Shown here: positions 4,249 to 5,150 of the stretch, piece by piece
Numbering within the stretch: the stretch's first letter is position 1
Layout: every line of letters begins with the position of its first letter
Assembly: GCA_044892505.1 (NCBI GenBank)
Contig: CM097882.1
Location: 204,042,001 to 204,106,000, forward strand
DNA from: Schmidtea nova
Lineage: Eukaryota
DNA: 64,000 nt
Direction: 5' to 3'
Program-made: the position numbers and the translations under genes
The notes under the pieces: generated by a model
What the model was told of the DNA's origin: nothing
The model's database searches: none
Seen by the model: the letters and a program-made list of their open reading frames with translations, nothing else

Positions 4249-4290
4249 GCCGTTAGACGGTCTTATCAATAACTCTATAATTAATTTATG
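4249..4290 (+). other. Flatworm (triclad)-type spliced-leader exon sequence fused directly to coding sequence
   Basis: GCCGTTAGACGGTCTTATCAATAACTCTATAATTAATTTATG: 42 nt ending in ATG like flatworm SLs; first 19 nt match the Schmidtea SL as I recall it (GCCGTTAGACGGTCTTATC); not followed by a GT donor. Confidence 0.8.
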
Positions 4291-5150
4291 TTTAAGTTTA
4301 TTAAGAAATTAGCATGAATTGATCAGAATTGGTGGTATATCTAGCTATATAGCTGTAGAAATTGACAATAATGAGAATAGTATGTACTTAATGTTACCTT
4401 TCATAGAAGATCAATTTATCGACGTTGATAATCTTTGAAGATCCTCTAAAGAATTATGCAATCAAATTGGTGAATTGGAAATAGGAAAAAGAGTGACATC
4501 TTTTCTTAAGACTGCAAATGGTCGAACGAGCATGCTAGGGAAAGTCAAATGGTTAGGAAGAATTAATCGCATCGATTGTGTTGTGATCGATCTTGATGAA
4601 CCGTTAGATTTAGTAATTATGGAAAGTTAGACTGCAAAAACAACTTTGAAACGAGATCGAAACACGGAGTATTTACTCATGTTACAAATGTTAATATCGT
4701 GTCAAATTTTACCGAATCAGTTATTCCTAACTAATTAAAAACGTCTAAAAACATTAATATCAACTCGTCAGTAAAGGTTTATCGCATGACATCGAGTAAT
4801 CAAATTGAAAAGCTCTATGGAACAATTGCTTGGTCTGGATATTCCGACAATTTGAAATATCTTTATGGAATTAAGCTAAATTCTCCTATGAATGATGGAA
4901 CAGATGGAACATTTTCTTTTCAAAGGTTGTTTTTATGTAAACCTAAATTAGGAATATTAGTTCCTGTTGGAATGGTAACATTACGGGAAAATAAAATCAA
5001 TCCAGATAATCAACACGAGGAATCATTATCTGCCGATTTTGAAAGCTATCAATCAATCATTAAAATGCTTTTAGAAAATGAGGGAAATGTGAATCAGCTA
5101 AATGAAAATAAATAAAATTTCTTGAAATCGTATCCGAATAAGCGGAGAAG
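4288..5150 (+). pseudogene. Intronless decayed CYLD-like sequence with two CAP-Gly domains (processed pseudogene)
   Basis: GKVKWLGRINRIDCVVIDLDEP...(frameshift)...FETRSKHGVF and LYGTIAWSG...YGIKLNSPMNDGTDGTFSFQRLFLCKPKLGILVP; multiple stops; starts at the SL ATG. Confidence 0.65.

What the first reader, a model, noticed from the sequence alone, without database searches (positions are those of the whole stretch)
4249..5150. Genomic fossil of a trans-spliced mRNA: spliced leader fused to a CYLD-like CAP-Gly sequence
Seen: a 42-nt SL-like sequence ending in ATG, followed directly by decayed intronless coding DNA, with no GT donor or Sm-site region. Established: flatworm SLs end in AUG, which can act as the start codon. 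Inference: a reverse-transcribed SL-mRNA was inserted, so the parent gene is trans-spliced. The 3' half differs from the Schmidtea SL I recall, so it may record this species' SL or an older variant. It lies head-to-head ~200 bp from the Gypsy gag start, so a template switch by Gypsy RT is possible.
Basis: partly seen in the sequence, partly recalled or inferred. Interest (0 to 1): 0.75.

Follow-up and report, generated by a model that had tools for sequence, protein, structure and literature searches.

The report
Spliced-leader repeat with captured mRNA cargo
A broken DNA copy of the front part of a flatworm gene, likely made from its mRNA, starts with the spliced-leader tag and sits between highly repeated sequences; the upstream repeat is joined to that tag in related sequence data, so a mobile repeat likely uses the tag to pick up host messages.

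Summary
The 42-mer at 4249-4290 is a triclad-type spliced leader (SL). It matches the published Schmidtea SL at 27 of 35 printed bases, and its first 19 bases head two unrelated flatworm-like mRNAs. No splice donor follows. Behind it lie a 70-nt 5' UTR and a dead CAP-Gly/ankyrin reading frame (4361-5111). That frame lacks two or three inserts that a ~97% identical, more intact copy carries, so it is likely mRNA-derived. The SL's AUG is not the start codon, CYLD is not established, and the copy is cut mid-ankyrin with no poly(A).

The new result comes from four public runs of one study. The ~75 nt upstream of the SL and ~700 nt downstream of the cargo are about 170-1300 times deeper than the gene where GC is moderate. 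The upstream flank and SL lie on single contigs, and the SL is followed by diverse sequences. So this is not a lone retrocopy beside a Gypsy element but likely cargo inside an SL-bearing repeat family, probably captured by template switching at the SL. No genome was available, run type (DNA or RNA) is unknown, and the contigs are mosaics. Verdict: new variant of a known kind.

The parts
4175..4248 (+). High-copy upstream flank, joined to the SL in other copies; 5' edge approximate (about 4170-4195)
   Evidence: depth 29,000-47,000 at 4227 against 23-42 on the gene; 63-82 contigs per run; pieces reach 53-61 nt to both sides of 4227, i.e. into the SL, in 4 of 4 runs
4249..4290 (+). Spliced-leader exon, triclad type, variant 3' half, terminal ATG, no donor
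   Evidence: 27 of 35 identical to the SL printed in PMC10899757 Fig S6 (counted by eye); first 19 nt at base 2 of L002 and L004
4291..4360 (+). 5' UTR of the captured transcript; the SL AUG opens a 9-codon out-of-frame uORF ending at 4317
   Evidence: start codon inferred at 4361 from the 4363 difference in 4 of 4 runs
4361..5111 (+). Dead coding fragment: two CAP-Gly-like domains, then the start of an ankyrin-like repeat. Lesions: start codon lost, TGA 4436, frameshift near 4604, TAA 4732. Lacks inserts at 4382, 4594/5 and probably 4878/9
   Evidence: (76-78% identity to P0001)
4807..4971 (+). CAP-Gly domain (PF01302)
   Evidence: E 2.3e-8, above the gathering score
5014..5109 (+). Ankyrin-like repeat, cut off at the 3' junction
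   Evidence: P0001 197-226 matches repeats of the ankyrin protein P0002; mapped to the window. No Pfam Ank hit on P0001 itself
5112..5845 (+). High-copy downstream flank; no poly(A); holds an Sm-like motif and hairpin resemblance at 5174-5199 and a stem-loop region at 5420-5530
   Evidence: depth 2,900-28,400 in bins 5149-5361 and 5433-5716, lower in the AT-rich bins; an X4 piece ends at 5111; family consensus matches from about 5113; z -2.8
5846..24778 (.). Later hAT-like insertion that splits the downstream repeat (8-bp target duplication at 5838-45 and 24779-86)
   Evidence: (loose ends after 5845)
24787..25050 (+). Continuation of the downstream repeat after the hAT element; end not determined
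   Evidence: The loose-end consensus after 5845 is found at 24787
1..4150 (-). Neighbouring decayed Gypsy element (gag zinc knuckle, RT, RNase H, integrase); runs off the window; no gag start or 5' LTR identified
   Evidence: depth 41-597, far below the SL-flank repeat

Best explanation
A dead, SL-headed fragment of a CAP-Gly/ankyrin gene, likely copied from a spliced mRNA, lies between two high-copy flanks, and the upstream flank is joined to the SL in related data; it is most likely cargo of a mobile repeat that carries its own SL. Shown: the SL, the lesions, the missing inserts, the cut at 5111, the high depth of both flanks, and the flank-SL linkage. Inferred steps: (1) a reverse transcriptase copying the repeat's RNA jumped onto the host mRNA inside the ankyrin region, at an A-rich spot; (2) it copied to the mRNA's 5' end; (3) the SL shared by mRNA and repeat let it jump back, giving flank-SL-cargo-flank. 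After integration the cargo decayed and a hAT element split the 3' flank. That both flanks belong to one element, and which RT acted, are inferred.
For:: flank depth 630-770x the gene in the SL bin and 620-800x at 5433-5503, with similar ratios in 4 of 4 runs. Contig pieces span the upstream flank plus SL in 4 of 4 runs. Loose ends after the SL are diverse (agreement 0.56-0.65; 6, 10 and 11 contigs in X4, X3, X2), and in X3 their median length of 10 stops at the SL's ATG, as at a branch point. The copy is 5'-complete, 3'-truncated, with no poly(A) (longest A-run 4) and no target duplication at the SL start. That matches the double-template-switch signature described in PMC5131818 (passages). 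Two insert sites fall after the same Leu of the two CAP-Gly-like repeats, and P0001's alignment breaks at the 4595 site, as expected of real introns.
Against: No LTR pair was found: the upstream flank has no second copy in the window, and I saw no primer-binding site by eye. The two flanks were never seen together in another copy. Depth is summed over contigs and is not a copy number. All runs come from one study, of unknown kind. Inserted letters were not printed, so GT-AG was not checked. The 4382 insert is absent in 1 of 4 runs, and only 1 of 4 runs shows a clear break at 4878. Contigs bearing the inserts also carry the SL, which this model explains only if the runs are RNA or the contigs are mosaics. 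The Sm-like and hairpin resemblance downstream favours an SL-gene origin. Only 24 of 968 loose-end rows were shown, so a dominant GT continuation could be hidden.
Confidence: 0.45

Rival explanations
1. The flank is the promoter region of an SL-RNA gene repeat. A cDNA of the trans-spliced mRNA recombined into an SL gene or orphon through the shared exon and replaced its donor and part of its intron. A site-specific retroelement of the NeSL kind (name recalled; seen only as a search term) could do this in trans.
For: Untranscribed-looking upstream DNA is joined to the SL's first base. An Sm-like 7-mer and an 11-of-13 match to the published terminal hairpin lie 60-90 nt after the 3' junction, in the published order, and it is the only such match in 64 kb (1.44 expected in the whole window).
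Against: The motif was picked post hoc, and the family letter at 5191 lowers the match. The implied intron would be well over 100 nt against about 64 printed. S. polychroa has only six SL genes (PMC10899757), while 63-82 variant contigs look like a dispersed family. The downstream high-copy region runs 700+ nt. The loose-end consensus after the SL shows no donor.
Confidence: 0.25
2. The intact, intron-bearing gene itself has the flank and SL in cis, so it need not be trans-spliced. The window copy is a daughter that lost its introns through RNA of that unit.
For: X1 record 2 joins the SL's last 28 nt, exon 1 and the 45-nt insert in one 310-nt contig. X3 record 16 runs unbroken from 4263 to 4595. 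No fork to an outron is visible at 4291 in these two runs.
Against: Contigs drop variants and are mosaics. X2 and X4 hold a second contig (depth 16-17 against 33-42) with the window's letters at 4438, 4468 and 4499, so at least two forms share the graph. If the runs are RNA, an SL on partly spliced transcripts is expected. The main copy's piece stops at 5111 in X4, so it does not visibly share the 3' flank.
Confidence: 0.15
3. One reading: a stand-alone SL-mRNA cDNA, possibly made by the neighbouring Gypsy RT, inserted here; the flanks are unrelated repeats.
For: The SL, the intron loss and the adjacent Gypsy element are real. SL-tagged retro-loci near LTR and LINE elements are reported in flatworms (PMC12582326 section 6).
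Against: The flank and SL are linked at about 1,100-1,300x gene depth, which a single insertion does not give. There is no poly(A) or target duplication. The Gypsy copy is in the opposite orientation and on one side only, and its depth is 30 or more times lower than the flank's.
Confidence: 0.12

Closest known systems
SL-tagged retrogenes (relict DinoSL) of dinoflagellates; PMC6050394 (passages), PMC5585692 and PMC12014239 (search listings)
   Same: A genomic SL directly upstream of a coding sequence marks reverse transcription of a trans-spliced mRNA.
   Different: Animal host; the copy is dead and 3'-truncated; a constant high-copy flank lies upstream of the SL, which the passages I read do not describe.
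SL-bearing non-gene loci in parasitic flatworms; Calvelo et al. 2025, PMC12582326 (section 6 read whole)
   Same: Genomic leader sequence without other SL-RNA features, often beside LTR or LINE elements (597 loci).
   Different: Those are partial leaders read as trans-spliced retrotransposon transcripts. Here the leader is full length, the cargo is a host gene, and the host is triclad-like.
LTR-mediated retroposition by double template switch; Tan et al. 2016, PMC5131818 (abstract and passages)
   Same: Partial mRNA between repeat sequences, 3' truncation, no poly(A) or TSD.
   Different: No LTRs or element ORF identified in the flanks. The 5' switch would use a 19-42 nt shared leader rather than about 6 nt of chance similarity, so any trans-spliced mRNA would be a substrate.
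Schmidtea SL1 RNA genes; PMC10899757 Fig S6 (supplement text)
   Same: Exon of equal length over the printed part, 27 of 35 identical, terminal ATG.
   Different: No donor, no exon-intron stem, no Sm site near the exon; 8 differences in the 3' half.
CYLD and CLIP3/4-type CAP-Gly proteins
   Same: Tandem CAP-Gly domains. The best CAP-Gly hit has the CYLD architecture (P0003, E 7e-12); the Atlas names CLIP3-like clusters (0.91).
   Different: Only about 30-38% identity over single domains; an ankyrin-like repeat follows the CAP-Gly pair; no USP domain seen; no full-length relative found.

Membership tests
Triclad spliced-leader exon | Conserved 5' half, similar length, terminal AUG | tested here: met
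   first 12 printed bases exact, 27 of 35 overall; first 19 shared with L002 and L004
Triclad spliced-leader exon | Found at the 5' ends of unrelated mRNAs | tested here: inconclusive
   Met for the first 19 nt (2 of 4 metagenome matches: Omp85-family and thiolase mRNAs with a different 3' half). The exact 42-mer was not seen on a known RNA record
SL RNA gene | GT donor directly after the AUG | tested here: not met
SL RNA gene | Exon-intron stem and Sm site within about 30 nt of the donor, then a terminal hairpin | tested here: not met
   Compared by eye; only a distant resemblance at 5174-5199; no relevant Rfam match
Processed pseudogene, LINE type | Loss of parental introns | tested here: inconclusive
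   Inserts at 4382 (3 of 4 runs) and 4595 (4 of 4), break at 4878 (1 of 4) in the close relative; letters not shown, GT-AG unchecked. Likely met
Processed pseudogene, LINE type | Complete 3' end with poly(A) | tested here: not met
   Cut mid-ankyrin at 5111; longest A-run 4
Processed pseudogene, LINE type | Target-site duplication | tested here: not met
   3 nt at the SL start; a 9-nt AT-rich match (4181/5109) is reached by 21 of 300 shuffles
LTR-mediated retrocopy (Tan 2016) | Both flanks are discontinuous parts of one element | tested here: inconclusive
   Both flanks are high-copy at similar peak depth; linkage in other copies not seen
LTR-mediated retrocopy (Tan 2016) | Paired LTRs around the chimera | tested here: inconclusive
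   No direct repeat of the upstream flank in the window; element ends unknown
LTR-mediated retrocopy (Tan 2016) | Shared sequence at the switch points | tested here: inconclusive
   5': the SL is shared with the family. 3': A-rich junction; parent sequence beyond 5111 not seen
CYLD | Three CAP-Gly domains plus a USP domain | tested here: not met
   Two CAP-Gly-like stretches, then an ankyrin-like repeat; the parent's C-terminus was not seen

The most novel reading that the evidence does not exclude
Planarian genomes hold a high-copy mobile element that carries a spliced leader and uses it as a universal handle: any trans-spliced mRNA can be swapped in behind the element's own 5' flank, either by RT template switching at the leader or by the element's RNA acting as a trans-splicing donor. 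The genome would then hold a library of precisely 5'-joined captured messages, of which this CAP-Gly/ankyrin fragment is one.
Probability: 0.3. Interest if true: 0.8.

Novelty: new variant of a known kind. Interest (0 to 1): 0.55.

Why it matters
SL-tagged retrocopies are known, but which machinery makes them is open: the dinoflagellate review says the mediating element type is unknown, and flatworm SL loci near mobile elements were filtered out rather than explained. A repeat family in which one constant flank is fused to the SL, with variable host cargo behind it, would name a mechanism and give a searchable tag: one BLAST of the flank lists every captured message. It would also record which genes were trans-spliced and which SL variants existed, and it warns that SL-gene counts and trans-splicing calls in planarians can be inflated by genomic SL copies.

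Tried and rejected
No genome is held for the window, so the parent gene and other copies could not be read.

No RNA holder was listed, which is no evidence on expression.

Rfam: no relevant family in 3500-6000 or in the window. No tRNA. The SL motif had 0 matches in viral contigs. Of 4 metagenome matches, 2 (L001, L003) are internal matches in 58-62% GC contigs that diverge after the motif and were set aside as chance.

No longer or shorter relatives of the protein beyond P0001; these blanks are weak evidence.

Pairing of the upstream flank with the SL, seen in one fold, is not significant: 550 of 1000 shuffles pair as well. A 9-nt candidate TSD was rejected. The Gypsy continuation was not found elsewhere in the window (one chance-level hit). 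Hammerhead or C/D snoRNA readings of 5430-5520 were considered by eye and have no support from Rfam. Holes in coverage (X1 at 4723-4793) were not interpreted.

Earlier-finding look-ups by sequence, place and most word sets returned nothing.

Literature searches listed no paper describing an SL-carrying cargo element in planarians. The library lacks most subscription papers: Rossi 2014 was not held and Zayas 2005 was seen only in reference lists, so published planarian SL variants could not be compared. A full alignment of the published SL intron with the downstream repeat was not run.

Full report
OBSERVATION. The 42-mer is at 4249-4290, once in the window; chance expectation for its first 19 bases is about 4e-8. 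The SL exon printed for S. mediterranea and S. polychroa (PMC10899757 Fig S6, supplement text) covers the last 35 bases. The window matches 27 of them without gaps, the first 12 exactly (counted by eye). A scan of metagenome contigs gave 4 matches to the first 19 bases. Two are mRNA-like contigs with the motif at base 2, an Omp85-family and a thiolase message, one with poly(A); they share a third version of the 3' half, also ending ATG. The other two are chance matches in GC-rich DNA. So the 5' half is a real triclad-type SL and the 3' half varies. No donor follows and Rfam has nothing relevant.

CARGO. The closest protein is P0001 (235 aa, species not given), 76-78% identical over 4382-4543 and 4606-5109. 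Pfam finds CAP-Gly. The end of P0001 matches ankyrin repeats, though Pfam gives it no Ank hit. CAP-Gly hits include CYLD-type and CLIP-type architectures at about 30-38% identity, so 'CYLD-like' is possible but unproven. The window frame has four lesions: start codon, TGA 4436, a frameshift near 4604 and TAA 4732. The SL AUG opens only a 9-codon uORF.

READS. No genome was held. Four runs from one study, kind unknown and contigs only, hold 37-40% of the words. I laid all four on 3800-5900 at 80% likeness. They contain a copy about 97% identical (9 differences in 333 nt in X3) with ATG at 4361 and TGG at 4436 in 4 of 4 runs. It has a 45-nt insert at 4382 in 3 of 4 runs and a break with roughly 50 extra letters at 4595 in 4 of 4 (size inferred from X3's record length). 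In X3 the match stops at 4878 with 100 unaligned letters, while an X4 piece crosses that site without an insert. The 4595 and 4878 sites follow the same Leu in the two CAP-Gly-like repeats, and P0001's alignment breaks at 4595, so they are likely introns. Their letters were not printed. The window lacks all of them, which argues for an RNA origin. An X4 piece ends at 5111 (read from the from_end values), and the consensus of other copies upstream of 5140 matches the window from about 5113. That places the 3' junction mid-ankyrin, with no poly(A) or TSD.

FLANKS. Depth is at most 77 over 4297-5077, but 8,600-26,900 over 4155-4296 and 2,900-28,400 over 5149-5361 and 5433-5716. It is lower in the AT-rich bins (750-4,200). 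Ratios to the gene are 630-770 in the SL bin and about 1,070-1,320 at base 4227. Base 4227 is covered by 63-82 contigs per run, and pieces reach 53-61 nt to both sides, so the upstream flank and most of the SL lie on single contigs in 4 of 4 runs. Loose ends after 4280 start with the published Schmidtea-type SL end and then disagree (0.61-0.65; 11 and 10 contigs). Six X4 contigs match through 4290 and diverge (0.56). Depth is not a copy number and only 24 of 968 loose-end rows were shown. Still, the DNA before the SL belongs to a repeated unit that includes the SL. A hAT-like element with an 8-bp duplication later split the downstream repeat, which resumes at 24787.

RESULTS AGAINST A SIMPLE READING. 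In X1 and X3 the contigs with the inserts begin with the SL's last 28 bases, exact, with no visible fork to an outron. If they are DNA, it is either a mosaic of parent and retrocopy (X2 and X4 do hold a second, half-depth contig with the window's letters at 4438, 4468 and 4499) or an SL in cis. Steady depth ratios and roughly 2:1 dosage make me lean to DNA (about 70%, inference). X3 has the intact start without the 45-nt insert, so that insert may be an indel rather than an intron. An Sm-like 7-mer and an 11-of-13 match to the published terminal hairpin at 5174-5199 hint that the downstream repeat is SL-gene-related. The motif was chosen post hoc and the spacing is too long.

MECHANISM. A 5'-complete, 3'-truncated, spliced fragment between repeat sequences fits double template switching (PMC5131818, passages) better than LINE-type priming on poly(A). 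The shared SL offers a long handle for the 5' switch. I put this at 0.45, recombination into an SL gene or orphon at 0.25, an SL in cis on the parent at 0.15, and a stand-alone copy beside Gypsy at 0.12. The first two share the core claim of SL-guided capture into an SL-bearing repeat. The Gypsy neighbour is in the opposite orientation, on one side only and of far lower depth; nothing ties it to the event.

KNOWN AND NEW. SL-tagged retrogenes are established in dinoflagellates (PMC6050394, passages). In parasitic flatworms 597 SL-bearing loci lie near mobile elements (PMC12582326, section 6 read whole). Retroelement RNAs can be trans-spliced (PMC3315495, passages) or compete for SL acceptors (PMC4558846, passages). 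That a flatworm SL AUG can initiate translation I saw only as a reference title. Passages searched in PMC11410931, PMC7346339 and PMC7986045 held nothing on this. Ten searches listed no SL-carrying cargo element in planarians, but key planarian SL papers were not available and repeat databases were not searchable. The retrocopy alone is ordinary. The constant flank fused to the SL at high copy, with varied sequence behind it, is the part worth following. Verdict: new variant of a known kind, interest 0.55.

Noticed in passing
window 5846-24778: hAT-like element (terminal inverted repeats, 8-bp target duplication, transposase-like ORF 22975-24560) holding a ~16 kb near-perfect palindrome (6622-22864, longest arms 96-100% complementary) with a RING-finger ORF in each arm (10846-11358 minus, 18274-18786 plus). 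A foldback structure or an assembly artefact; N runs lie in both arms.
   Followed up: partly
window 49610-50031: A 420-nt 18S rRNA fragment (Rfam) lies between two pantothenate-kinase (Fumble) coding blocks at 47572-48006 and 51395-51763, so probably inside an intron.
   Followed up: no
window 45949-46512: GIY-YIG ORF, likely from a Penelope-like element (family link recalled).
   Followed up: no
window 5420-5530: Stem-loop region of the high-copy downstream repeat folds better than 199 of 200 shuffles (z -2.8; one of six stretches folded); no Rfam match.
   Followed up: partly
L002 1525-1564 (minus), L004 2-42: Two mRNA-like contigs of one metagenome-collection data set share a 41-nt SL with the same first 19 bases and another 3' half: a further triclad-type SL variant.
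   Followed up: partly
window 25100-25520, 34356-34570, 38281-38882, 41167-41700: A further dispersed AT-rich repeat family with at least four copies in the window.
   Followed up: no
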